DNA of 64,000 bases from IMG/VR virus record IMGVR_UViG_3300005660_000003, positions 10,261 through 74,260 of that record; one strand, given 5' to 3'. This document shows positions 17,302 through 63,011 of the stretch, piece by piece. The position numbers and the translations under genes were made by a program. Source of the stretch: a virus (Duplodnaviria > Heunggongvirae > Uroviricota > Caudoviricetes). The notes under the pieces were generated by a model, which saw only the letters and a list, made by a program, of their open reading frames with translations, did no database searches and was not told the DNA's origin. The number at the start of each line of letters is the position of its first letter. Position 1 is the stretch's first letter.

Positions 17302-17613
17302 ATGAAGTTATCTGGTGTTAAAAAATCTAATTCGTGTTCAATTTTATTAGGTTGCTCTCCAGATTTTTTTAAATCTTACATAGAAGAAAAGTTTACAACC
17401 GGGATGACTTGGGAAAATCATGGGGTATATGGATGGCACCTAGATCATATAAAACCTTGTAATTCTTTCGATTTATCAAATCCAGAACAACAAAAAGAGT
17501 GTTTTCATTATACTAATATACGTCCCTTGTGGGCTACAACCGATATAGCGATGAGCTACGGAGAAGGCCCGGACTACATTGGGAATTTAGAGAAAGGAAA
17601 GACTGTCACATAA
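17302..17613 (+). pseudogene. 5'-truncated HNH endonuclease copy (HNH domain only, 103 aa)
   Basis: Retains GMTWENHGVYGWHLDHIKPC...NIRPLWA but lacks the zinc-finger/repeat N-terminus. The promoter cassette abuts the ATG. Confidence 0.6.
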
Positions 17614-17980
17614 GTTTTAAATGATCTGTTATACCAATAAATTTTTCTGAAAAATCTGGTCCTATAGCTACCACTGTATTCGTTGGTATATTTTTAAATT
17701 CAGTTTTTCCAGAATCTGTAATTAAATTAGTTATTAATCCTGCTTTTTTTGCTTTATTATAAACTTCCAATAGTTCTTTCTCTGTGTCAACGTACACTAC
17801 TACTTTTGTAGTACCTGTATTAAGCCACTCTAATTCGCTTTCCGAAAAACGTAAACTGTCTAGTTTTTTTAGTAAAAAGGCCATACTTCCGTGGCAAATT
17901 TGCGCGGCCATCTTGCCGGTTCTTATAGTCTTTGTTTCCACCCCTTCTTCATCGGGAAAATATCTGCGCATCACTATCAC
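17606..17980 (-). CDS. PTH2-family peptidyl-tRNA hydrolase-like protein
   Basis: GKMAAQICHGSMAF matches the PTH2 signature GK.AAQ..HA. Confidence 0.6.
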   Translation of the reverse strand: MIVMRRYFPDEEGVETKTIRTGKMAAQICHGSMAFLLKKLDSLRFSESELEWLNTGTTKVVVYVDTEKELLEVYNKAKKAGLITNLITDSGKTEFKNIPTNTVVAIGPDFSEKFIGITDHLKLM

Positions 17981-18431: not shown

Positions 18432-18465
18432 TATAAATATCCCATAAGTAGTTTAAAATAAAGAT

Positions 18466-18538
18466 TGCGGCACACGGGATTTGAACCCGCAACCTCCGGT
18501 TTGGAAAACCAGTACTCTGCCAATTGAGTTAATGTCGC
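18466..18538 (-). tRNA. tRNA, probable Gly (anticodon UCC)
   Basis: Hand-folded cloverleaf: acceptor 7 bp with one A-C mismatch; D arm actc/aattggcag/gagt; anticodon stem ctggt/accgg; loop tttccaa; T arm gcggg-ttcaaat-cccgt. No encoded CCA. Confidence 0.55.
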
Positions 18539-18649
18539 ATAAATAGTTAGATGGTTCCTTAAGTGGACTTGTCTCGAATGATCTAGGCCGGTATCCAGAT
18601 CACCGTCTATATCTAACTAAGTATAAACCTCAGAATCATTCTTCGGTTT

Positions 18650-18985: not shown

Positions 18986-19096
18986 TGAGTCCGGCAGGAT
19001 TCGAACCTACAATCTACTAATCCCCGAGCACTTCTTGTTTACGGGAAAATTCGAAGCACAGTATAGTGTGCCGCGTTTGCATTTCGCCACAGACTC
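18986..19096 (-). ncRNA. tRNA-like element of atypical length (111 nt): good acceptor stem and T arm (gtagg-ttcgaat-cctgc) but oversized interior with extra hairpins
   Basis: Acceptor gagtctg/cggactc pairs over 7 bp. The interior contains hairpins gcaca-ctatac-tgtgc and cccg-N15-cggg. It cannot be folded by hand into a canonical cloverleaf. Confidence 0.3.
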
Positions 19097-20944: not shown

Positions 20945-21022
20945 TACCCCTCCGTGGATTTGAACCACGACTATGATAATGACAATCAAAGTGTCATGCA
21001 CTAAAAAGACCAGTAGCCTATC
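20945..21022 (-). tRNA. tRNA-like, Gln (UUG) anticodon arm and canonical T arm; acceptor stem not convincingly foldable (possible pseudo-tRNA)
   Basis: Anticodon arm tgaca-ctTTGat-tgtca and T arm cgtgg-ttcaaat-ccacg read on the minus strand. Confidence 0.3.
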
Positions 21023-21405
21023 ACGGTTTTGGGCGGGCTACTCCGCTTTCGTTATACGCTCATTCCACGGGTTAATGCCCGGATTTCCAACCGCCCCATT
21101 ATTTCTAATATCTGCCCAACTCCAAGATTCCGCCCCGTCAACATGAAGTAGGAAATTTATCTCCCCCTTGGGTAGTTCCGGGTGATCAGTATCTCTTAAG
21201 ATTTGCTGTACGGCGGCTGATATTGCTCTTTTTTGTTCTAGTGAAAAGATGGTATTCTCCTACTTGTTAAACTTTTTCCAAAGACTTTTTGTGTCTTCTT
21301 TTATAATTTTAAAAATTTCTACCGGGAGTATAAAGATACAAAAGAGTATAGCTAAGATGAGTGTTCTAAAGAATTTATTCAGGTTCGTGATCGATATAGC
21401 CATAA

Positions 21406-21639
21406 TTAATCTAACCCATTTCCGTCTGAGCAATCTCCACATTCCTCTTCGTCCATCCTAAAGTCTTCAAGAATATTTAGCACATCATGATAATCTGTAT
21501 ATTCGCCCTCTTGGTTAATCTCCATACGTGTATCATATTTTTCGTAAGAGTATCTAGTCAGATTACACTTCATTGCTACCCTAATCTCATCCAGCAACTC
21601 ATTAATTATTTGGTTTGCTTCTATTTCTTTCAAGTTCAT
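21406..21639 (-). CDS. small acidic hypothetical protein
   Basis: 77-aa ORF. Confidence 0.35.
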   Translation of the reverse strand: MNLKEIEANQIINELLDEIRVAMKCNLTRYSYEKYDTRMEINQEGEYTDYHDVLNILEDFRMDEEECGDCSDGNGLD

Positions 21640-21986: not shown

Positions 21987-22070
21987 TCCGCAAGACAGGA
22001 GTCGAACCTGCACGGGTTGTTAACCCAATAGCTTCTAACGCTACCGTGACTACCATTTCACCACTCGCGG
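21987..22070 (-). tRNA. tRNA-Leu (anticodon UAG), type II with long variable arm
   Basis: Hand fold: acceptor ccgcgag/cttgcgg; D arm gtga-aatggtag-tcac; anticodon stem gtagc/gctat with loop gtTAGaa; variable arm gggtt-aac-aaccc; T arm gcagg-ttcgact-cctgt. Length 84 nt. Confidence 0.6.
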
Positions 22071-24512: not shown

Positions 24513-27500
24513 CTAAATTGAACAGGCCCCACCAGAACACCCTGACTCAACAGTCATATCGTCGGTGCCGTCTGGGGTTACTAAGTAATACAGGTTTTTA
24601 ATACCCAATTTGTGTGAGTATATCATTTGTTTAATTATTTCAGATAGTGGAATTTTACCATTAGGATAATTATTATAATCCATAAAAAGATTTAGAGATA
24701 TACTCATACATATCCATCTTTGCATTGATGCATAGATTTTAATATGATGGAGCTGATCTACCATTTCAAATGCTGTTGTGTAATAATTCTTATTTTTAGG
24801 CCAAGACGGAGGAATAACCTTAATTGCCCCAGAGCCAGATTTTTTAGTAGTCAAAAAACTACGTATTGCATCTACCCCATTTGTAGAATTTTGCACAACC
24901 GAAGACGATTCTACCGGCATTTCTGCAAGTAATGTAGAATTCATAAGACCGAACTCTAATATTCTTCCACGTAATTTTTCCCAATCCATTTTAGGTTTAT
25001 CTAAAAACTTTAACTCTTTAGCTGTGTCAATTGGTAAAATTCCATCTGCCCATTTAGTTTTTTCAAACCAAGGCATTCTTTCACCCAACTCTTCTGCTAT
25101 TTTACAAGAGGCACTTATCATATAATAGGAAACTTTTTCAAAAATATCAGAGGTTTCCTGCAGTACTTCTTGAGATGTAAGCTTTATCTTTTTGCTAGCC
25201 ATATAGGCCGCATAATTAGTGATTCCTATCCCTAGCGACCTATAGTTCTTACAAAAGTTTTCTGCTGCCGGGAATCTATACTCTTGAGAATCTATGACTT
25301 CGTGCAATATTCTAGATATAATATAGCACACACTTTCATACTCTTCTTCTTTTGTTGTAAGAACATTAACAGCAGATAGCACGCACACACCAATTAATCC
25401 ATCAGGGTCCTGTAGGTGTTGTACTGGTTTAAGTGGGTGAACGACCTCTTGGCAATTTCCAGTTAAAATCCCATTAAATACAGCTTTATGTTCTAACGGC
25501 TCATTTAAACAATACGTATCATCTTTTCTACCGTCGTCCGTTATATTGGCTACCGTAATAAATTGAGATGCCTCTCTCTGTGGTAATCTTTGATTAAATT
25601 TTAATCTATTTGTTTTAAACCCCATCAATGAAAGCTTATATAAATCATTTGAATTTATTAATAGTCTTTTTGTTTCCTTGCATGAGAATAATTTATACCC
25701 GCCACGACCATCTGGTAAAAGTCTGTCTCCAGTTTCTACTCCATTTACAATTTTACTATTTATACCAAGGGTTTGAAGCATTAATTGTAATTCATAAATA
25801 AATTCTTGCTCTATAGAAGAAACCTGTATTGACTCATTTGTTCCATTTCTAGCTATAGTTCCATCTCCATCTAAATAACCAGCTAACCAAGCGAGTTTTA
25901 TTTTAACCGAAGAGTTAGTTGGTATTTTAAATTTCATAGGCATATCTTCATGCATTACAACATTTCTTCTACCAGAGGTGTCTTCTCCTCTATCTTTTTT
26001 AATATCTAGAAACTTAACAAGATTTTTCTTTTCTCCATATAGAGATATTCTTCTTGCCGATCCAGTCTCATGTGTTCCGTCAGCACAAAATAGTCCGTGG
26101 GTATATGGATATTTAAAATCTTCTGATCCATCTACAATAGGTAGATCAAATTTACATAGCTTGTCACCCACCTTAAGATCTTTAGTTTCTTTAATGGTTA
26201 ACTTACCCTTAACTTGATCTGCATATGACTCAACAATATACCACTTGTGGTATGGTGTGCATTCTAAATATTTACCATCTGAAAGTATAACTTTAACAAG
26301 TTTTTTATTAACCCCAGTTTTTACAACTTGCGTTTTTGACCATTGTTTACCATTCCAAACAGATACAATTTCATTTTCTAGTTCACGTATTGGAATGTGA
26401 CCATCTTTCGTTAGTAACAATGTCTCTGGAGCAACACACAAATTACTAGTAGTAACTCTTTCTTTAAAAGTACTGTGCTCATTCACATTATCTATGTGCA
26501 TAATATATATACGGCCAGTTTCAAGTCTTTCTTTTGCTATTTGGTTTAATAACTCAGATGCCTTTATTCTCTTTGAGAACTTTCCCCCTTTTTCTTCTGC
26601 TCTTGTGTAGATCTCATCAAATTCGGGTAGTCCAAAACTATTATAAACCTCGGGAAATTCATGATAACTCATTAAGGTAACGTCCTCACCCTTCATAAAT
26701 CTATTATAAAGAATTCCACTAATCTGTATACAATAATCCATCCATCTTACCTTATTTTCATCCGCCCCCTTATTATTCTTATAAGTGAGAATATCCTCTA
26801 TCTCTGGATGAAAGAATGGGAAATTTATTGTAGCAGAACCTTTTCTAATTCCTCCTTGTGAGGTTGAATTAACAGAACTTTCAAGTAGCTTTGCAAACGG
26901 GCGAATACCTGTATGTTTAACTTCCCCGTTTCTAATAGGGGCATTTCTAGCCCGGATAGATCCCATGTCTAAGCCAATTCCAGACCTATCTGCTACATAC
27001 TGCCCGACTATATGACTAGACGAAAAGATGGAGTTTAATGTATCATCAATTTTAATTAATATACAGCTTGAGTAATTCTTTAGTTTAGTTCTTACGCCAG
27101 CTAAAATGGGGGTAGGGAGATTTATTTTAAACAAAGAAAGATAATCATAAGTTTTCTTTATTAAGTCTAATCTATTCTCGTAACTCTTAAATAAAACCAT
27201 TGGAATTAATATAAAAGCGAATTGGGGAGTTTCATATATTTTCCCCGTTGATCTATCCTTAATTAGATACTTATCACACATTTGCTGAATACCAGCGTGG
27301 GTAAACATAAAGTCTCTATCATGTTTAACCATTTTATTTATTTTGTGTATTTCAGACTCTGAGTATTCCTTTAGTATGTCCTCATTGTAAATAGTCTTAT
27401 TTTTTCTAAGATGGTCATACAACCTAGGTGGGTCACTTTCTCCCCAGACTTGTTTTCTTAGGGCGTATGTCCGCAGCCTCCCGGCAACATATTGATAATT

Positions 27501-27719
27501 AGGATTATCTAATGTTATTAGGTCATACGCCGATCTTACTAATATCTCTTGTATATCAGAGGTTTTCATCTTATTTGATATTGAAATCTTAGCGTTCATG
27601 GCTACATCACTAGCTGATACGTCACTTAAATCGCTACATGCCCACTCAAGGACTTTGTTAATTTTTTCAGCATTAAATTCTTCTAATTTACCATTTCTCT
27701 TTTTTATTTGTAAAGTCAC
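24513..27719 (-). CDS. nrdA: ribonucleotide reductase class Ia alpha subunit containing an intein
   Basis: N-terminal ATP-cone, then SNL-C...N-CQEV. The extein is about 740 aa. The 328-aa insert has Hint blocks and LAGLIDADG motifs. Confidence 0.9.
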   Translation of the reverse strand: MTLQIKKRNGKLEEFNAEKINKVLEWACSDLSDVSASDVAMNAKISISNKMKTSDIQEILVRSAYDLITLDNPNYQYVAGRLRTYALRKQVWGESDPPRLYDHLRKNKTIYNEDILKEYSESEIHKINKMVKHDRDFMFTHAGIQQMCDKYLIKDRSTGKIYETPQFAFILIPMVLFKSYENRLDLIKKTYDYLSLFKINLPTPILAGVRTKLKNYSSCILIKIDDTLNSIFSSSHIVGQYVADRSGIGLDMGSIRARNAPIRNGEVKHTGIRPFAKLLESSVNSTSQGGIRKGSATINFPFFHPEIEDILTYKNNKGADENKVRWMDYCIQISGILYNRFMKGEDVTLMSYHEFPEVYNSFGLPEFDEIYTRAEEKGGKFSKRIKASELLNQIAKERLETGRIYIMHIDNVNEHSTFKERVTTSNLCVAPETLLLTKDGHIPIRELENEIVSVWNGKQWSKTQVVKTGVNKKLVKVILSDGKYLECTPYHKWYIVESYADQVKGKLTIKETKDLKVGDKLCKFDLPIVDGSEDFKYPYTHGLFCADGTHETGSARRISLYGEKKNLVKFLDIKKDRGEDTSGRRNVVMHEDMPMKFKIPTNSSVKIKLAWLAGYLDGDGTIARNGTNESIQVSSIEQEFIYELQLMLQTLGINSKIVNGVETGDRLLPDGRGGYKLFSCKETKRLLINSNDLYKLSLMGFKTNRLKFNQRLPQREASQFITVANITDDGRKDDTYCLNEPLEHKAVFNGILTGNCQEVVHPLKPVQHLQDPDGLIGVCVLSAVNVLTTKEEEYESVCYIISRILHEVIDSQEYRFPAAENFCKNYRSLGIGITNYAAYMASKKIKLTSQEVLQETSDIFEKVSYYMISASCKIAEELGERMPWFEKTKWADGILPIDTAKELKFLDKPKMDWEKLRGRILEFGLMNSTLLAEMPVESSSVVQNSTNGVDAIRSFLTTKKSGSGAIKVIPPSWPKNKNYYTTAFEMVDQLHHIKIYASMQRWICMSISLNLFMDYNNYPNGKIPLSEIIKQMIYSHKLGIKNLYYLVTPDGTDDMTVESGCSGGACSI
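25455..26438 (-). mobile_element. intein (residues 428-755 of NrdA) with LAGLIDADG homing-endonuclease domain, inserted at the thiyl-radical Cys (SNL|C)
   Basis: Starts CVAPETLLLTKDG (block A). TPYH (block B). HGLFCADGT and LAGYLDGDGT motifs. Ends ...TGN followed by +1 Cys. Confidence 0.8.
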
Positions 27720-35741: not shown

Positions 35742-36798
35742 AACAAGGCATTATGTTTATAAAATAACAAATAAGATTAATGGTAAGTTTTATATTGGTA
35801 TTAAATCTTCTAGGCTTAACTTTTTAGATACTAATTATTATGGAAGTGGGAGGTTAATTAAAGCTTCTATTAAAAAACACGGTAAAGAAAATTTCTTAAG
35901 AGAAGTTCTTTTTGAATTTAGAACTCGTGAAGAAGTCTTAAGTAAAGAAAAAGAATTGGTTACCAAAGATTTAGTTAGTAGCCATAATTGTTACAATATA
36001 ACAGTTGGTGGTGGAGGATTTACCAATCTCAATTATCGTTCACTTCCTATAAAGAGTCTTGATTTTATGGGTAAAATAACTTACTATAAGTCTATGCTTG
36101 ATGCCTCACTTTTAGTTAAGGGATGTAATAGAACTGGCGTGCGTAATGCTATTATTGGTAAAGCAAATACCCATAATAATTTATATTGGTCTAAAGCTGA
36201 TAAAGACTTTTTAATCAAGAAAAATAGAAACTCTATTACCCCGTGCTTTTCACTAGATGAAAATAGTAGTAAAATTTACTATAATTCATTTTCAGAAGCC
36301 TCAAAGGCTACAGGGGTAGCTTGTAGTATAATCAGGAGATGTGTGGTTTCTGGTAAGGGCACTGGTGGCGGATTTAATTGGTATAAAACTACATCAAAAT
36401 TAGACTCATCTAGTTTCCGTGGAAAAAATTATTTAACTAGAAAACCTTGTATTTCTATAGATAAGACTGGTGCAAAGAAATATTATTCTTCTATTACTGA
36501 AGCTAGTAAGCAAACTGGTATTTGTAATACAAATATTTGTTTATGCTTAAAATTAAAAGCACGTTCTGCTGGTGGATTATCTTGGTATTATACCGATTCT
36601 GAAACAAATAAATTTAATGGAGTCGGTCCCCGCACCAAGTGTTACGAAAGTACAGATTCTAGAGGAAATAAAAAACGTTATAAATCCTTAAAAGAAGCTG
36701 CAAAAAGCAACAATTACAGTGTAGATTATATCTCTAAAGCTGCTAAAAATAATTTATTAGTTGCTGGATTAAAATGGGAGAGAATAAATGCTAAATAA
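35728..36798 (+). CDS. GIY-YIG homing endonuclease with C-terminal repeated helix-turn-helix (NUMOD/IENR-like) DNA-binding modules
   Basis: HYVYKITNKINGKFYIGIKS is GIY-(10)-YIG. Repeats YY(N/S)S(F/I)(S/T)EASK.TG. Overlaps the intein-containing gene start by 11 nt. Confidence 0.8.
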   Translation: MNVNKTRHYVYKITNKINGKFYIGIKSSRLNFLDTNYYGSGRLIKASIKKHGKENFLREVLFEFRTREEVLSKEKELVTKDLVSSHNCYNITVGGGGFTNLNYRSLPIKSLDFMGKITYYKSMLDASLLVKGCNRTGVRNAIIGKANTHNNLYWSKADKDFLIKKNRNSITPCFSLDENSSKIYYNSFSEASKATGVACSIIRRCVVSGKGTGGGFNWYKTTSKLDSSSFRGKNYLTRKPCISIDKTGAKKYYSSITEASKQTGICNTNICLCLKLKARSAGGLSWYYTDSETNKFNGVGPRTKCYESTDSRGNKKRYKSLKEAAKSNNYSVDYISKAAKNNLLVAGLKWERINAK

Positions 36799-38773
36799 TA
36801 CTGAGGGGTGGATTCACGACCCACGAGCCATAGAAGAGGTGATGTCTTCTCTTGAGCAACCATTCTTTTTTCAAGCGGCTGACGTTTTACAAGCTACTGG
36901 TAAGGGTAAATCAGCTTACCTTTATGAGAATTTTAAAAAGTTAAATATTCCATATCCCAAGCCACTCCAAGCTGGCGAAGGAGACTGTTTTAATCCGTCT
37001 TCATTAGTTACTATGGCTGACGGCTCTAAGAAATCTATCATTGATATTAAGGTTGGTGATTTAGTAATTTCTGCAATTGGTAATATTAAAAAGGTTTTAT
37101 CGGTATTTAATAAACCGTTTACTGGTAAAATGATTAAAATAACTACTCAGAGTTACCATAAACCATTGATTTGCACACCTGACCATAAATTAGTTCAATG
37201 TGTTAGTAAAAATACCACTAGATGGAATCGAGCGGATCTATTAGATCTTAAAGATTATATTCTAGTTTCAAAAATGCCTAACATAAATAATGAAAAAATA
37301 TACGATTTATCACAAATTTGTCCGAAGTCTGAGAACGTAGGTACTGATCAAATTAAAGCAATTAGATCTAATAAATTAGCTAACAGATTTATTAAGAATT
37401 CAGAAAAATTATTTTGGTTATTCGGTATGTATTTAGCTGAGGGAAGTTGTGACTTAGGTGGTGACAAATTACCAAAAAGAATTACATTTAACCTATCTAA
37501 TGATGAAATTTTAATAGCTGAAAAAATTAAACAATACATTAAAGATGTTTTTAATCTTGATGCTATTATTTGTAGTGTCCCATCGAAACCAAGTGTTTTG
37601 TACGTAAGAATTGGTAGTTATTTATTTGCTAATTTTGTTAAACATTTTTGTACCGGAAACGTTTATTCTAAATCATTTAGTGATGACTTTAAAATAGAAT
37701 CATTTTCTAATAAGTTAGCATTGCTTGAGGGATGGATGGATGGTGATGGATGGGAAGATAGAAAAGGCGTAACCGTAAGTGAAAATTTAGCTTATAATTT
37801 TTTTGATATAGCTAATTCTTTGGGCATGAATGTTAGAATTGATCATCGTAAAGCATACAAACAAAGTAAAAAAAGTTATTCGGTCGATATTAATTGTAGT
37901 GTTAAAACTTATGAAAAAGCTAAAGTTTTTACGAAAACTAGACTAAGTTATAATTTTATCACTAAGGTAGGTAAAGCTGCTAAAATAAAAAATGTAGAAT
38001 ATATTGAGCCAGAAACTGACAAGGTTTATTGTATTGAGGTAGAGGGTGATAACTCATTTATCTGTGACGGTTATGGTGTTCATAACTGCGTCTCTCACGC
38101 CACATCTTTGGCACTCGACACTTTATCTGTTACTGAAATTGTAAATGGCGATAGAGAAGTTTGGGTTGCAAGATCCGCTAGCGAATACGTTTATCATGTT
38201 TCTAGGATGGTAATCGGTAAAGGTAGATTTGGCTCCGGCGGAGGGTCCGTGAATGCTTATGCCGCTAAGGGTCTTCAGGAATATGGTAGTTTACGACGAA
38301 CCCAATATAACTCTGTAGATTTAACTAAATACTCTGAGAAAAGAGCGTATTCTTGGGGTCGTGGTTCTATTCCTAAAGATCTTTATGACATAGCTAAGGC
38401 CCAGAATATTGGTAAATTTGCAGCTATTAAAAATTTTAGTGATGCGTGCGACAGTCTTTATAATGGATATCCAATTGTTGTTGCGTCAAGCCAAGGGTTT
38501 TCTTCTACGAGAGATAAGGATGGTTTTTGTAGACCTCAGGGTAGCTGGATGCATTCCATGAGTGTACTTGGATATAAAGACGGTAGTCGTCCCGGTGTTG
38601 CAATTTGTAATTCTTGGCCCAGCTTTTTACCCGGAGAAAATGAGTTTGGGTTACCACCATCGTGTTTCTTCTGCGATGCTTCTGTCTTTGATAATATGTG
38701 TAAAATGGGTGACACTTTTTCATTAGCCGGATTTAACGGTTTTAAACCACGTGCCGACGCTCGTGTAATTTAA
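36788..38773 (+). CDS. papain-like (C1 family) cysteine peptidase interrupted by an intein
   Basis: The 294-aa extein has Q-x5-C (QAGEGD|C), ...HSMSVLGYKDGS... and NSWP...GENEFG, matching papain Q19/C25/H159/N175 plus NSWG...GENGY. Confidence 0.7.
   Translation: MLNNTEGWIHDPRAIEEVMSSLEQPFFFQAADVLQATGKGKSAYLYENFKKLNIPYPKPLQAGEGDCFNPSSLVTMADGSKKSIIDIKVGDLVISAIGNIKKVLSVFNKPFTGKMIKITTQSYHKPLICTPDHKLVQCVSKNTTRWNRADLLDLKDYILVSKMPNINNEKIYDLSQICPKSENVGTDQIKAIRSNKLANRFIKNSEKLFWLFGMYLAEGSCDLGGDKLPKRITFNLSNDEILIAEKIKQYIKDVFNLDAIICSVPSKPSVLYVRIGSYLFANFVKHFCTGNVYSKSFSDDFKIESFSNKLALLEGWMDGDGWEDRKGVTVSENLAYNFFDIANSLGMNVRIDHRKAYKQSKKSYSVDINCSVKTYEKAKVFTKTRLSYNFITKVGKAAKIKNVEYIEPETDKVYCIEVEGDNSFICDGYGVHNCVSHATSLALDTLSVTEIVNGDREVWVARSASEYVYHVSRMVIGKGRFGSGGGSVNAYAAKGLQEYGSLRRTQYNSVDLTKYSEKRAYSWGRGSIPKDLYDIAKAQNIGKFAAIKNFSDACDSLYNGYPIVVASSQGFSSTRDKDGFCRPQGSWMHSMSVLGYKDGSRPGVAICNSWPSFLPGENEFGLPPSCFFCDASVFDNMCKMGDTFSLAGFNGFKPRADARVI
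36986..38086 (+). mobile_element. intein (367 aa) with LAGLIDADG endonuclease domain, inserted immediately before the catalytic Cys of the peptidase
   Basis: CFNPSSLVTMADG (block A). CTPDH (block B). LFGMYLAEGS and LLEGWMDGDGW. Ends GVHN|C. Confidence 0.8.
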
Positions 38774-59437: not shown

Positions 59438-59528
59438 GTGATTACTCCAACTAAAAAACCAAAAAGATGTGGGTGGCCAACATTAACCACCCACTGAAAA
59501 CTAATCTCGGACTTTCGTCCTTCAAATA

Positions 59529-59942
59529 CTACTCAGCTTTTGGAGCTGGCACTGACCAAATCAGGTCGTCGTTTGTTGGAACAAGCAATCCCGCACACTG
59601 TGCGAACTGAATAGCAGACTGCTTAGCTCCAACCGCAGCAGCCAAGCAGAATATGTTCTGCGTTGACTGAGCGTGCGCAGCGGCCACATTGATTCTGTCA
59701 ATTTCTTTATGCACACTTGCCAACTCATCCTCAAGGTTCTTCTTGGCCCGAGCCAACGCTGTGGAACGGTTTTGAGCTGATGTAAGAACACCAACAGTAA
59801 ACCCTTCCAATTTTTCAAGAGCAGCAGCCTGCTTCTTTGCCAAAGCCTTACCAATTACGTCTGAACCAAACGTAGATGGGGCAATAACATCCGCAACAGT
59901 CAAAGTTGACAACGGATTCACAACACTCGTACTTTCACTCAT
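59529..59942 (-). CDS. Ala-rich hypothetical protein (start assigned to the internal Met with RBS; ORF-track start at 60011 is less likely)
   Basis: agggaag lies 8 nt upstream of the ATG at 59942. Coiled-coil-like Ala/Lys/Glu-rich sequence. GC-rich. Confidence 0.4.
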   Translation of the reverse strand: MSESTSVVNPLSTLTVADVIAPSTFGSDVIGKALAKKQAAALEKLEGFTVGVLTSAQNRSTALARAKKNLEDELASVHKEIDRINVAAAHAQSTQNIFCLAAAVGAKQSAIQFAQCAGLLVPTNDDLIWSVPAPKAE

Positions 59943-60010
59943 AAAACTTCCCTTTGCAAAGGAAACTATAAAATGGGAGCAACTACATATTACCCCCGGT
60001 AAACTACACA

Positions 60011-60583
60011 CTAATCACCAAAGCCATCATTAAGTAAAAATGGCCTTTGTGGACTCGAATCAGAAATTGTCCAACTAATTTCTGGACTTCTTAATTGATT
60101 TTTGTTTTTAACTACACCTATAATCTTCCTGTCGAAATTAGGTAAAAGCATTTCTATCTTATTGTTATTATTTATCGACAATTCAAAATCTTGGAAAGCG
60201 AAACTTTTTGAGTCTTTATCATACGGTATGTTTTTCGTATAATATAGAAATGAAAAGTTTGTTTTGTCTTCGGTTTCTTTTAACCCTGTAATCACGCAGG
60301 AGAATATATGGTCGCACGCCAATGAAATCGCATATGGAAAACCATCTATCGTACGTTGGAATTTAGTGTGCCCAGTAAATCTTACTGAAGATCCATCGTA
60401 AATATTAATTACCTCGGCGTATCCTTCTGGGGTAATTTGTACGTATACCCTTCTACCATCTGGATTTTTCTTATTCGTAAAGAAATGTAGATCATTGCTA
60501 TATGTTTTTCCAACATATGTATGGTCAAACATTCTTCCCCATTTATGAAGTAGTGGGTGACTTTTATACTGTAATTGCGTCAT
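60011..60583 (-). CDS. hypothetical protein
   Basis: 190-aa ORF. Confidence 0.45.
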   Translation of the reverse strand: MTQLQYKSHPLLHKWGRMFDHTYVGKTYSNDLHFFTNKKNPDGRRVYVQITPEGYAEVINIYDGSSVRFTGHTKFQRTIDGFPYAISLACDHIFSCVITGLKETEDKTNFSFLYYTKNIPYDKDSKSFAFQDFELSINNNNKIEMLLPNFDRKIIGVVKNKNQLRSPEISWTISDSSPQRPFLLNDGFGD

Positions 60584-60606
60584 AAAAACTTTCTAAGAAA
60601 AGGGTG

Positions 60607-61029
60607 TTATGTTTGAAGAGACAATCTCTTCTTTATTTCACTAAAAGTAGAAGAGTTGCAGGATGCTCCGTTAAGAAAGATGGAGGTCAACTCTCCCTCT
60701 TTTTCCTGCTCCGGTGAACAATCATTAAGTAACACAAGGACTCCATTGTCTCTTTTGATTACTGAAAGTAATCCTTTTGCGGACTTCTTCATGCCATCGC
60801 CAGTTTTTGGATCTTTAAAGATGCTCTTGGCTACGCCAGAGATTTGGACCCAAGTAGCCTTGCAGGCAATAGAATATGTATCACGGGTAACATATTGGTA
60901 TGTGTAAGACCCAATACCAAACACTACATTAGTGGAAGCAAAACCCTTGTCGGCTAGTAATTTGCAAATTTGTTCACACCTATAGATGATTGGTGTGAAT
61001 AAATAAGCATTCAGGGATACCAGAAGCAT
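60607..61029 (-). pseudogene. nadV: C-terminal remnant (about 140 aa) of nicotinamide phosphoribosyltransferase NadV/NAMPT
   Basis: GIGS...QYVTRDTYSIACKATWVQISGVAKSIFKDPKTGDGMKKSAKGLLSV...TFSEIKKRL aligns by eye to the NAMPT C-terminus (GSGGG...LTRDLLNCSFK......VFKDP...KRSKKGRLSL...SFDEIRKN). The N-terminal ~350 aa are absent. Confidence 0.5.
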
Positions 61030-61357
61030 CCATTTCTACATCATCTAATATTAAGATCTTACCACTAACTGGGTTGCTTGCGATCCAGCTCTTGATCTCA
61101 TCTATTCTCCAACTACCCTCTATATCTGTACAGGGCAATATTGGCGTATGATCAAAGATAGTAAGCCCCGCCCACAATAACTCACTTCTTACGCGGGTTA
61201 TTGAGGCTGGGTGTCTACGCTAATCAGAAGAAAGAACTATCTTAGAACTGGTGCTCTCTACGAGAAATTTCAACAGTAGCAACTTGTCATTCTCAAAAGG
61301 TGTTTCGCTTATTGAGCGATTAAGAACACCATCCACGTCTAAGAAAATAATGTTCAC
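60980..61357 (-). pseudogene. small HAD-superfamily phosphatase with an in-frame TAG at codon 46 (probable TGG to TAG in the conserved SSDWR motif); GTG start overlapping upstream stop (GTGA)
   Basis: Hand translation: VNIIFLDVDGVLN...KIVLSSD*RRH...KILILDD.... HAD motifs I (DxDGxL) and IV (DD) are present. The ORF track shows only the post-stop part (60980..61177). Confidence 0.5.
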
Positions 61358-61602
61358 GCCGTTTTCCCACCAATTCCAAATTTTCTAACATCTTCTCTTG
61401 GGTTTACTACCCTAATCTTTTCGACTAGAATATTATCAATACTATCTATCAATTCTTCCGTTAGTTTTCCCAAATTTTTCCTTTCGGCAACGCTTGGGAT
61501 TCCCTCAACGGTAATTGAAAAATCTGTATTTTGATAACTACCAGAAGATATTTTAACTGATCTTGTTACAGTTACACTTTTGATTATCATGAAAATGCCC
61601 AA
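61354..61602 (-). CDS. hypothetical protein
   Basis: 82-aa ORF. Confidence 0.4.
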   Translation of the reverse strand: MGIFMIIKSVTVTRSVKISSGSYQNTDFSITVEGIPSVAERKNLGKLTEELIDSIDNILVEKIRVVNPREDVRKFGIGGKTA

Positions 61603-62696
61603 TGTTTAGTTTGGATTTCGTTTACAAACACATCAGCTTTTATGTGTTTCTCTGGAGCTGGATTTGATTTAATCCATTCTTCATAAATTACTTCTGTGTC
61701 TTTGTTATTAACTTCATCCCAAGCTTCATCCCAAGCTTTATATGCAGGATTTACCATAGTAACCATGAAGGTTTTTTCACCAGTTATACTAATTAAACAT
61801 ATAACATGGTTGCCGCCCTTATCATAAATCCAAGATCCGGGTGGTGAAAACCTTGTAAATGGTTCACATAGTTCAAGTTTTTCATGATATATTGTACCAT
61901 CTTTTGCATCTACTATTTGGTAGTTATATGAATATTTTTTGCCAACGCTTCTATTGCAGTTTAAAATACTAATAAATGCAGATGGCTTTTCATCATATAA
62001 ATTTGATTCATCTATTATTTCTATCACCGAATCTATAGAAATAGTATCCATTTTTGAAATTACTTCAATTGTGTCATCAGTAAATGCCACATTTTTAAGT
62101 CTATCTTGTACGATCTCTGTGATGGTGTCCTTGGTTAGATCTCCGTATTCTTTAACATATCTAATTCTACTTAGTCTATTAAGCAGATTTTCATTAACAA
62201 ACATGTGATTTGTTGTCAGAAGATACAAACACTTTTGCTTAGGAACTTGTACTCCATCCATACAGGATAGCAACACACCCCTAGTGTCCTGAGTGAAAAC
62301 CTTTTCATATTCATCAACAAGAATTACACAATCGAAATCTATCGTGTTAATGAATTCTGGTATTCCGGGTAGATTTTCACTAATCATAATTACGGGCAAT
62401 TTTAGCTCATTACATATAATTTTTGCCGTAAATGTTTTACCAGAACCCTTCATTCCATTTAGTAAAACGCCCAAATTTCTTTTTGATTGATTAAAGCTTT
62501 TTACAATCCTATCAATTAAGGTTTTGTCCACATCGTAGATCTTTTCTGGAAGCTTAAAAGACTCTCCTACGTGACTTAAATATAAGCCAATGCGTGGACT
62601 AAGACATAGTTGATACATTCCAGCTTCAATTTTTACTGGAACGTGTGGATCTGTAGAGTAAATACACCCGCTACTATTAACCCAAATTTTAGACAA
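61587..62696 (-). CDS. AAA ATPase
   Basis: Walker A GMKGSGKT. Walker B ILVDEYEK. LLSCMDGV (sensor region). Confidence 0.65.
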   Translation of the reverse strand: MSKIWVNSSGCIYSTDPHVPVKIEAGMYQLCLSPRIGLYLSHVGESFKLPEKIYDVDKTLIDRIVKSFNQSKRNLGVLLNGMKGSGKTFTAKIICNELKLPVIMISENLPGIPEFINTIDFDCVILVDEYEKVFTQDTRGVLLSCMDGVQVPKQKCLYLLTTNHMFVNENLLNRLSRIRYVKEYGDLTKDTITEIVQDRLKNVAFTDDTIEVISKMDTISIDSVIEIIDESNLYDEKPSAFISILNCNRSVGKKYSYNYQIVDAKDGTIYHEKLELCEPFTRFSPPGSWIYDKGGNHVICLISITGEKTFMVTMVNPAYKAWDEAWDEVNNKDTEVIYEEWIKSNPAPEKHIKADVFVNEIQTKHWAFS

Positions 62697-63011
62697 GGTT
62701 TTCTCCGTAAGTAAAAGATGAAAAGCTAGACTCTGAAGAAGGCTTCAGCTTCTGAAAGTGAAAGAGGGATAATTGACCCTTTGGGGCTGGTCAGAGTAAC
62801 ACTCTTAGTGCTAATATTTATTACGGTATAACCGTCTTTAGTGGTGCCAATTCCAATAGTAGGTGTTTGTTGTGTTTCGCTCAAGAGTCTTCTCCTAAAA
62901 GGTTTTTAACTTTTTCAAGTATTTCCGAAGTGGTTTCGCCGCCATCTATGTGACTTGCTTCATCTGTGATACTATGATAAAGGTCGTTTAGAGTACCACA
63001 TAGATCATCAA

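What the first reader, a model, noticed from the sequence alone, without database searches (positions are those of the whole stretch)
60980..61357. In-frame amber codon in a small HAD phosphatase gene (TGG to TAG in SSDWR)
Hand translation gives a coherent 125-aa HAD phosphatase: IIFLDVDGVLN ... KIVLSSD*RRH ... KILILDD ... . It has a GTG start overlapping the upstream stop (GTGA). The frame is broken only by a TAG at 61220-61222, where homologs would carry Trp. This could be a recent nonsense mutation (pseudogene), a sequencing error, or a site of amber suppression. The phage carries its own tRNA cluster, and several phages encode suppressor tRNAs.
Basis: partly seen in the sequence, partly recalled or inferred. 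Interest (0 to 1): 0.55.

Follow-up and report, generated by a model that had tools for sequence, protein, structure and literature searches.

The report
Broken phosphatase gene remnant in phage
A small phage phosphatase gene really does carry a premature stop codon where its relatives have tryptophan, but it has also lost its tail end in a rearrangement, so it is most likely an ordinary dead gene and not a case of stop-codon suppression.

Summary
Window 61357..60980 is one reading frame for a HAD_SAK_2 (PF18143) phosphatase, broken only by TAG at 61222..61220. All 14 closest homologs have Trp there (SSDWRR), so one G-to-A change explains it.

It is not a sequencing error. Nine contigs assembled separately from ENA, JGI and Logan samples are 100% identical over 2.3 kb, TAG included.

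It lacks the last ~20-25 codons, which in homologs hold the conserved G-x-T motif and the C-terminal helix. Its final stop codon is supplied out of frame by the adjacent 5'-truncated NAMPT/NAPRTase remnant, at a junction mapped to the base against a related phage contig. That relative has no HAD gene at all.

Nothing supports amber suppression:
- No credible tRNA with a CUA anticodon in about 84 kb of this genome.
- No other conserved gene interrupted by TAG.
- TAG ends 17-21% of ORFs.
- RNR alpha ends in TAG and is in frame with RNR beta.

Verdict: a nonsense-mutated, 3'-truncated pseudogene in a decaying, mosaic accessory slot of an uncultured phage. Low interest.

The parts
61223..61357 (-). 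5' part of the HAD_SAK_2 phosphatase pseudogene (codons 1-45). GTG start in a GTGA overlap with the upstream ORF. Holds motif I (DVDGV) and motif II (LSS).
   Evidence: Translation. Pfam PF18143 profile 1-52/139, 31.4 bits, on this half alone. Gene callers call it as a 45-aa ORF in L092 and L094.
61220..61222 (-). In-frame amber codon TAG replacing the family-conserved Trp of SSDWRR (TGG to TAG, one G-to-A transition).
   Evidence: W in 14/14 homologs and 152/163 loci. Identical in 9 independent assemblies.
60983..61219 (-). 3' part of the HAD pseudogene (79 codons), with the invariant R, the R-x-x-E-I motif, motif IV ILDD and the T of F-x-x-T. It ends prematurely at ...HTNHL.
   Evidence: Pfam profile 58-128/139. 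Alignment A1. The AF2 model of homolog P0001 shows that the missing part is the G-x-T turn plus the C-terminal helix 130-148.
60980..60984 (-). Rearrangement junction and terminal stop. The last HAD-specific base is 60984. From 60983 onward the sequence (ATAGGTGTGAAC...) is NAMPT-derived, and the HAD frame stops at once on TAG 60982..60980, which is GAT AGG (Asp-Arg) in the NAMPT frame of the relative L085.
   Evidence: BLASTN of window against L085: 100% identity begins at window 60983. Three-frame translations.
60607..61029 (-). 5'-truncated NAMPT/NAPRTase remnant (140-aa ORF). Real NAMPT homology runs from about 60990 down. Only the C-terminal part of the catalytic domain is present.
   Evidence: Pfam PF04095 profile 155-221/239 only. 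L085 keeps a longer but still truncated copy, profile 63-221/239.
61354..61590 (-). 78-aa ORF (82 aa from an upstream TTG), function unknown, coupled to the AAA gene by ATGA and to HAD by GTGA. Together with the HAD fragment it forms the 609-bp block that the relative L085 lacks.
   Evidence: No Pfam or PHROG hit.
61587..62696 (-). AAA+ ATPase gene (369 aa). Left flank of the variable slot; 79% DNA identity to L085, against 99.6% on the right flank.
   Evidence: Pfam PF00004, phrog_2376, BLASTN.

Best explanation
This is a pseudogene: the remnant of a small capless HAD phosphatase of the HAD_SAK_2 family. That family is related to the 3'-phosphatase domains of RNA-repair enzymes such as T4 Pnkp. 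The copy carries two independent lesions. (1) A G-to-A transition turned the conserved Trp codon 46 (TGG) into amber, so translation should stop after 45 residues. That product has motifs I and II but lacks motifs III and IV, so it should be catalytically dead. (2) An illegitimate recombination or deletion removed the last ~20-25 codons (conserved G-x-T and the C-terminal helix) and joined the gene out of frame to the middle of a NAMPT gene, which is itself reduced to a C-terminal stub. The slot between the AAA ATPase gene and the 190-aa gene is a variable, decaying accessory locus. In a close relative it holds a different set of gene fragments and no HAD at all. Shown here: the TAG is real and fixed in the sampled population; the junction position; Trp in homologs; the missing C-terminus; no suppressor tRNA in the sequence available; normal use of TAG as a stop. 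Inferred: that no functional protein is made, and the order of the two lesions.
For: The TAG is real: 9 contigs from different ENA, JGI and Logan samples are 100.0% identical to window 62800..60501. Homologs are single 137-166 aa proteins with W at the site. The halves match consecutive parts of one Pfam profile, and intact homologs cover 1-139/139 while this copy stops at about 128. PHROG 1818 is likewise covered only 5-135/161. The AF2 model of the nearest intact homolog (pLDDT 93.7) places conserved G127/T129 and helix 130-148 in the missing part. Identity to L085 starts exactly at 60983, and the HAD stop codon is made of NAMPT codons GAT AGG. L085 lacks the 78-aa ORF and HAD, so the gene is dispensable in this phage group. 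The adjacent NAMPT is truncated in both lineages. No intact allele closer than 51% identity exists among 5.8 billion protein clusters, IMG/VR or the metagenome set. The code is standard: 91% coding density, with TAG ending 24 of 115 (or 13 of 76 long) ORFs.
Against: After the TAG, the 79 remaining codons stay open and keep every residue that is invariant in the family within the retained part (R47, L60, T71, R84, E87, I88, D105, D106, T122). Either the nonsense mutation is young or the downstream part is still translated. All assemblies are identical, so there is no polymorphism with which to test for relaxed selection. Only about 84 kb of a probably larger genome could be searched for tRNAs, and the host's tRNAs are unknown. 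The gene keeps translational coupling (GTGA) to the upstream ORF.
Confidence: 0.85

Rival explanations
1. The amber codon is decoded in vivo by a phage- or host-encoded suppressor tRNA, or by high natural read-through of UAG-C, and yields a 125-aa HAD phosphatase, possibly as conditional or low-level expression.
For: The downstream frame is intact and keeps all family-invariant residues. The phage carries tRNA genes, some odd: a 111-nt tRNA-like gene at 18986..19096 with a 6-nt anticodon loop CUAUAC, and in the relative L095 a tRNA with an 8-nt anticodon loop. The base after the TAG is C, generally a weak termination context in E. coli (general knowledge, not tested here).
Against: No canonical tRNA-CUA in the window or in about 20 kb of flanking genome, with ARAGORN, relaxed ARAGORN or Rfam. 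The HAD is the only homology-supported gene interrupted by TAG. The one other candidate (TAG 21262..21260) is simply the stop of one gene inside the Shine-Dalgarno sequence of the next. TAG ends 17-21% of ORFs. RNR alpha ends in TAG and is in frame with RNR beta with no other stop between them, so efficient suppression would fuse them. Even if read through, the product lacks the conserved C-terminal G-x-T and helix, and near-cognate read-through of UAG would usually not insert Trp (general knowledge).
Confidence: 0.08
2. The TAG is a sequencing or assembly error, and the real genome has TGG.
For: It is a single-base difference from the expected codon.
Against: Nine contigs assembled independently from different projects and samples (ERZ27275376, ERZ795076, ERZ795397, ERZ27275110, JGI 3300027802, 3300027959, 3300005657, 3300005131, SRR6266368) are identical over the whole 2.3 kb or their full overlap, including the TAG. 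No TGG allele is on record.
Confidence: 0.01
3. The two halves are separate functional small genes: a 45-aa N-terminal peptide, and a C-terminal protein restarted internally, for example at TTG 61177.
For: A 65-aa TTG ORF exists at 61177..60980.
Against: All homologs are single-domain proteins of 137-166 aa. The catalytic motifs are split between the halves (I and II upstream, III and IV downstream), so neither half can form a HAD active site. I saw no obvious ribosome-binding site before the TTG in the sequence, though I ran no dedicated scan. No family member is known as split genes.
Confidence: 0.02

Closest known systems
[quoted passage not shown]
   Same: Significant profile match (72.4 bits). 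Motifs DVDGV, LSS(D)W, R-x-x-E-I and ILDD are conserved. Size and N-terminus match phage homologs. The family is common in large phages (176 IMG/VR and 220 metagenome hits).
   Different: Interrupted by TAG at the conserved Trp. Lacks profile positions about 129-139 and the C-terminal helix. The nearest intact relative is only 51% identical. There is no synteny with the relatives' neighbourhoods.
T4 polynucleotide kinase/phosphatase (Pnkp) 3'-phosphatase domain, and other capless HAD phosphatases (MDP-1, HisB-N, GmhB)
   Same: The AF2 model of the intact homolog P0001 gives its best Foldseek PDB matches to these capless HAD folds: MDP-1 1u7p TM about 0.6, HisB-N 2fpr, GmhB 3l8e, T4 Pnkp 2ia5 TM about 0.45. 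A phage Pnk annotated with this CDD domain and T4 5UJ0 is reported in PMC7765460. An RNA ligase gene (PF09414) lies about 2.2 kb upstream in this phage.
   Different: No kinase domain is attached. Sequence identity to the solved structures is only 9-16%, and Foldseek E-values are only about 4e-3 to 3e-2. No sequence-level PDB hit. The substrate is unknown. This copy is broken.
Phage stop-codon recoding and suppressor-tRNA systems (TAG-recoded Lak and crAss-like phages; suppressor tRNAs of some phages)
   Same: Only the superficial feature: an in-frame TAG in a phage that carries tRNA genes.
   Different: Those systems, as I recall them from the literature (not re-read here), have a tRNA-CUA, many in-frame TAGs concentrated in late genes, and depletion of TAG as a terminator. 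None of the three is found here.
Ordinary phage pseudogenes and gene remnants in hyperplastic accessory regions
   Same: Nonsense mutation plus truncation. Adjacent remnants of other genes (a NAMPT stub here; an HD-like fragment fused to NAMPT in L085). Presence or absence varies between close relatives. Identity jumps sharply at the junctions, 79% against 99.6%.
   Different: Nothing notable.

Membership tests
HAD_SAK_2 / HAD superfamily phosphatase | Sequence match to PF18143 above the curated cut-off | tested here: met
   72.4 bits against a cut-off of 27.5 with W substituted. The N-half alone scores 31.4 bits; the C-half alone scores 23 bits, below the cut-off.
HAD_SAK_2 / HAD superfamily phosphatase | Catalytic motifs I (DxDG), II (S/T) and IV (DD) present | tested here: met
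   DVDGV, LSS and ILDD align with columns that are invariant in 14 homologs.
HAD_SAK_2 / HAD superfamily phosphatase | Uninterrupted ORF covering the whole domain | tested here: not met
   TAG at codon 46. The profile is covered only to about 128/139. The conserved G-x-T and the C-terminal helix are missing. It is therefore a remnant of a family member, not a functional member.
HAD_SAK_2 / HAD superfamily phosphatase | Mg-dependent phosphatase activity | not testable with these tools
   Needs a biochemical assay.
Amber suppression / TAG recoding in phages | A tRNA gene with anticodon CUA | tested here: not met
   ARAGORN and Rfam on the window and on flanking loci L085-L104, about 84 kb in all, found Gly-UCC, Leu-UAG, Leu-UAA, Arg-UCU and Met-CAU. 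Relaxed ARAGORN gave only obvious false positives. The rest of the genome and the host were not available.
Amber suppression / TAG recoding in phages | Several conserved genes interrupted by in-frame TAG | tested here: not met
   A scan for same-frame ORF pairs split by one stop, with inspection of each TAG case, left only the HAD gene.
Amber suppression / TAG recoding in phages | TAG depleted as a terminator; poor gene models under the standard code | tested here: not met
   TAG ends 13/76 long ORFs and 24/115 ORFs of a greedy gene set. Coding density under code 11 is 91%.
Pseudogene (decaying gene remnant) | Premature stop at a codon that is sense in all close homologs | tested here: met
Pseudogene (decaying gene remnant) | A further independent disabling lesion | tested here: met
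   The 3' truncation at the junction with NAMPT-derived sequence, mapped to the base.
Pseudogene (decaying gene remnant) | Gene dispensable in close relatives | tested here: met
   L085/L095 (SRR28148161) lacks it, while the flanking genes are 79-99.6% identical.
Pseudogene (decaying gene remnant) | No functional product; relaxed selection | not testable with these tools
   All available copies are identical, so dN/dS cannot be computed. No expression data.

The most novel reading that the evidence does not exclude
The amber codon is a deliberate conditional switch. It would be read by an unconventional phage-encoded decoder, for instance the 111-nt tRNA-like gene at 18986..19096, whose 6-nt anticodon loop contains CUA, or a suppressor tRNA in the unseen part of the genome. 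The RNA-repair-type phosphatase would then be made only when that decoder is active. The retained translational coupling, and the fact that every family-invariant residue downstream of the TAG is preserved, are the only hints.
Probability: 0.03. Interest if true: 0.7.

Novelty: new member of a known kind. Interest (0 to 1): 0.12.

Why it matters
It matters little in itself. It is an example of accessory-gene decay in an uncultured, apparently widespread phage: the same clone was assembled from many samples. It is useful mainly for annotation. The locus should be marked as a HAD_SAK_2 pseudogene followed by a NAMPT remnant, and should not be used as evidence for amber suppression or an alternative genetic code. 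It also shows that an in-frame stop at a conserved codon needs a check of the gene's ends and of close relatives before recoding is invoked.

Tried and rejected
- **Public phage records.** Megablast of 59500-62800 and tblastn of the HAD against INPHARED phages found nothing. The RNR large subunit is at most about 42% identical to any deposited phage, so the phage is not in that collection.
- **Exact pattern search.** A 29-mer spanning the TAG/TGG site found nothing in IMG/VR, metagenome contigs or genome contigs. The identical contigs came only through the exact-protein look-up.
- **Closer or intact relatives of this HAD.** None is above 51% identity.
- **Synteny with the closest HAD homologs** (contexts of P0001 and P0003): none.
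- **A second possible TAG read-through at 21262..21260.** Rejected: the downstream 70-aa protein family always starts with its own Met at that point.
- **Sequence search of the PDB with the family profile.** No meaningful hit.
- **Exact look-up of the 60-aa ORF 21442..21260.** Not on record.
- **Relatives of the odd tRNA-like gene in IMG/VR.** None.
- **ARAGORN with lowered thresholds or intron mode.** It yields dozens of spurious calls, including one 'cta' call with a 102-nt intron, and is not informative.

Full report
**1. The observation**

The feature lies on the minus strand; the plus-strand translation of 60980-61357 is full of stops. Read on the reverse strand, 61357..60980 gives VNIIFLDVDGVLNRSISETPFENDKLLLLKFLVESTSSKIVLSSD*RRHPASITRVRSELLWAGLTIFDHTPILPCTDIEGSWRIDEIKSWIASNPVSGKILILDDVEMDASGIPECLFIHTNHL*. 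That is 125 codons with one internal TAG at 61222..61220. The GTG start at 61357..61355 overlaps the TGA of the upstream 78/82-aa ORF (GTGA). That ORF in turn overlaps the stop of a 369-aa AAA+ ATPase gene.

With W in place of the stop, the protein matches Pfam HAD_SAK_2 (PF18143) at 72.4 bits, E=6e-20, and PHROG 1818. The two halves separately match consecutive parts of the same profile: 1-52/139 and 58-128/139.

**2. What homologs have at the site**

A search of 5.8 billion protein clusters returned 14 homologs of 137-166 aa at 33-51% identity. In the alignment SSDWRR is conserved and all 14 have W at the stop position. Across 163 family loci from IMG/VR and metagenomes, 152 have W and none has a stop. 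One of the two search patterns required W, so that count is biased upwards. TGG to TAG needs a single G-to-A transition.

**3. Not a sequencing error**

An exact look-up of the neighbouring 190-aa protein found the same phage in many public assemblies. Nine contigs are 100.0% identical to window 62800..60501 over the full 2300 bp or their full overlap, TAG included:
- ENA: ERZ27275376, ERZ795076, ERZ795397, ERZ27275110
- JGI: 3300027802, 3300027959, 3300005657, 3300005131
- Logan: SRR6266368

The amber codon is therefore fixed in the sampled population. No TGG allele is on record. An intact 125-aa or longer allele would have been the top hit, whose best hit is 51% identical.

**4. A second lesion and the local history**

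Homologs continue for about 20-28 residues beyond the window protein's end, through a conserved L-G-L-T-E-x-D segment. They cover the Pfam profile 1-139/139. An AlphaFold model of the nearest intact homolog P0001 (pLDDT 93.7) shows the missing part to be the G127-x-T129 turn and the C-terminal helix 130-148.

The ORF immediately downstream (61029..60607, 140 aa) is only the C-terminal piece of a NAMPT/NAPRTase domain, PF04095 profile 155-221/239.

One contig of a related lineage (L085/L095, SRR28148161) settles the anatomy:
- Its AAA gene is 79% identical at DNA level.
- It has no 78-aa ORF and no HAD.
- It carries a 306-aa ORF holding a longer but still N-terminally truncated NAMPT (profile 63-221/239), preceded by what looks like an HD-domain fragment.
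- From window 60983 downstream it is 99.6-100% identical to the window.

The shared sequence begins ATAGGTGTGAAC. In L085 this reads GAT AGG TGT (D R C) in the NAMPT frame. In the window the HAD frame runs into it and stops at once on TAG 60982..60980. So the HAD gene's 3' end is an illegitimate junction, and its stop codon is borrowed from NAMPT-derived DNA. The left boundary of the lineage-specific 609-bp block is at about 61593, the end of the AAA gene.

The slot between the AAA gene and the 190-aa gene is thus a mosaic, decaying accessory locus that holds different gene fragments in different close relatives.

**5. Test of the suppression idea**

*tRNAs.* ARAGORN and Rfam find Gly-UCC (18465-18539) and Leu-UAG (21987-22070) in the window. 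They also find a 111-nt tRNA-like gene (18986-19096) with a 6-nt anticodon loop CUAUAC and a 41-nt extra arm, and a sub-threshold D-arm-less Gln-like element. Flanking loci extend the visible genome to about 84 kb. They add Leu-UAA and Arg-UCU, and in the relative Met-CAU plus a tRNA with an 8-nt anticodon loop. No CUA anticodon appears. Relaxed ARAGORN settings give only noise.

*Other in-frame TAGs.* I scanned all six frames for pairs of open segments of at least 40 codons split by one stop and inspected every TAG case on the coding strand. The only one that looked suggestive was TAG 21262..21260, followed by a start-less 73-codon segment. That segment belongs to a very common 65-75-aa protein family whose members all start with Met exactly three codons after the TAG. 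That TAG is therefore a normal stop, and part of the next gene's Shine-Dalgarno sequence TAGGAG.

*Stop usage.* TAG ends 13 of 76 ORFs of at least 100 aa, and 24 of 115 ORFs in a greedy gene set that covers 91% of the window under the standard code. The RNR alpha gene ends in TAG (24515..24513) and RNR beta follows in the same frame with no other stop between them, so efficient suppression would fuse the two subunits.

None of the hallmarks of phage TAG recoding or suppression is present.

**6. Most likely explanation**

This is a pseudogene. Translation should end after 45 residues. That product carries motifs I and II but not III and IV, so it cannot form a HAD active site. Even if the stop were read through, the product would lack the conserved C-terminal element.

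The parent gene was a small capless HAD phosphatase. Foldseek places the model of the intact homolog nearest MDP-1, HisB-N, GmhB and the T4 Pnkp phosphatase domain (TM 0.45-0.6, 9-16% identity, E-values only about 4e-3 to 3e-2). The Pfam family is named for RNA-repair proteins, and a phage Pnk carrying this domain is tabulated in PMC7765460. An RNA ligase gene (PF09414) and a PP-loop ATPase lie 2-5 kb upstream. An ancestral role as an RNA-end 3'-phosphatase is plausible but only inferred.

The relative L085 has lost the gene completely and keeps the ligase, which fits dispensability.

Confidence is about 0.85. The main caveat is that the 79 codons after the TAG are intact and keep all family-invariant residues. 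That means either a young mutation or continued translation. Because all copies are identical, selection cannot be measured.

**7. Rivals**

- Suppression or read-through giving a functional protein: about 0.08.
- Separate functional half-genes: about 0.02.
- Sequencing error: about 0.01.

**8. Novelty and score**

The phage itself is not in INPHARED, and the HAD is a divergent member of a known family. A nonsense-mutated, truncated accessory gene next to another gene stub is an ordinary thing. I score interest at 0.12 and file it as a new (defunct) member of a known kind. The most novel reading not excluded is a conditional amber switch read by an unconventional decoder; I give it about 3%.

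Noticed in passing
window 21041..21250 (-), start position 21250..21248: A ~70-aa gene of a very widespread, highly conserved small-protein family (more than 1600 clusters, 75-82% identity; all 14 aligned homologs start MFS-x-x-QKR) has ATC (Ile) exactly where the homologs have their ATG start. A good Shine-Dalgarno sequence (TAGGAG) lies 6 nt upstream, and no ATG/GTG/TTG follows in frame until late. This is either ATC initiation or a start-codon knock-out. The ATC context is present in all six related assemblies that reach it.
   Followed up: partly
window 18986..19096 (-): A tRNA-like gene scores above the Rfam gathering threshold (39.2 bits) but is missed by ARAGORN. It is 111 nt long, with normal acceptor, D and T arms, a 6-nt anticodon loop CUAUAC on a 5-6 bp stem, and a 41-nt extra arm at the variable-arm position. 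ARAGORN intron mode calls it Leu-CAA with a 27-nt intron. The exact sequence is present in the five related assemblies that span it. No relatives in IMG/VR.
   Followed up: partly
L095 8101..8173 (related lineage, outside the window; corresponds to just beyond the window end): A tRNA with an 8-nt anticodon loop CUGCAACG (ARAGORN reports a 4-base anticodon 'gcaa'; Rfam 52 bits). This is the architecture of +1 frameshift-suppressor tRNAs. It was not found in the window lineage, where a 372-aa ORF of unknown function follows the same upstream gene.
   Followed up: no
window 20945..21010 (-): A sub-threshold tRNA-like element (23 bits) lacking the D arm, with anticodon loop CUUUGAU (UUG, Gln) and a weak G-U-rich acceptor stem. 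Probably a decayed tRNA.
   Followed up: no
window 24513..27719 (-) and 36788..38773 (+): The RNR large subunit (1068 aa) carries an intein with a LAGLIDADG endonuclease domain. A second 661-aa protein also contains an intein/Hint plus LAGLIDADG module; I did not identify its host protein.
   Followed up: no
window 60607..61029 (-); L085 9057..9977: NAMPT/NAPRTase survives only as remnants of different length in two close lineages. In L085 it is fused to an HD-domain-like fragment (PYTYHLEQVANIV...LHDVIEDT) that is preceded by an in-frame stop. The HD resemblance rests on my recollection of the motif; Pfam gave no hit.
   Followed up: partly
window ~63574 to the window end, and beyond (L096 4628..9266); window 17606..17980 (-): An RNA/tRNA-related neighbourhood: an RNA ligase (PF09414, cut by the window end), a PP-loop ATPase (PF01171), tRNA genes Leu-UAA and Arg-UCU about 6 kb beyond the window end, and a PTH2-type peptidyl-tRNA hydrolase (PF01981) at about 17.6-18.0 kb.
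   Followed up: no
whole window and loci L085-L104, L185-L192: The phage genome is almost clonal, at 99.9-100% identity over the stretches compared (2.3 kb and 3.3 kb), in assemblies from many different samples and projects. One sample (SRR28148161) holds a mosaic relative in which identity switches abruptly between 79% and over 99% at gene boundaries.
   Followed up: partly
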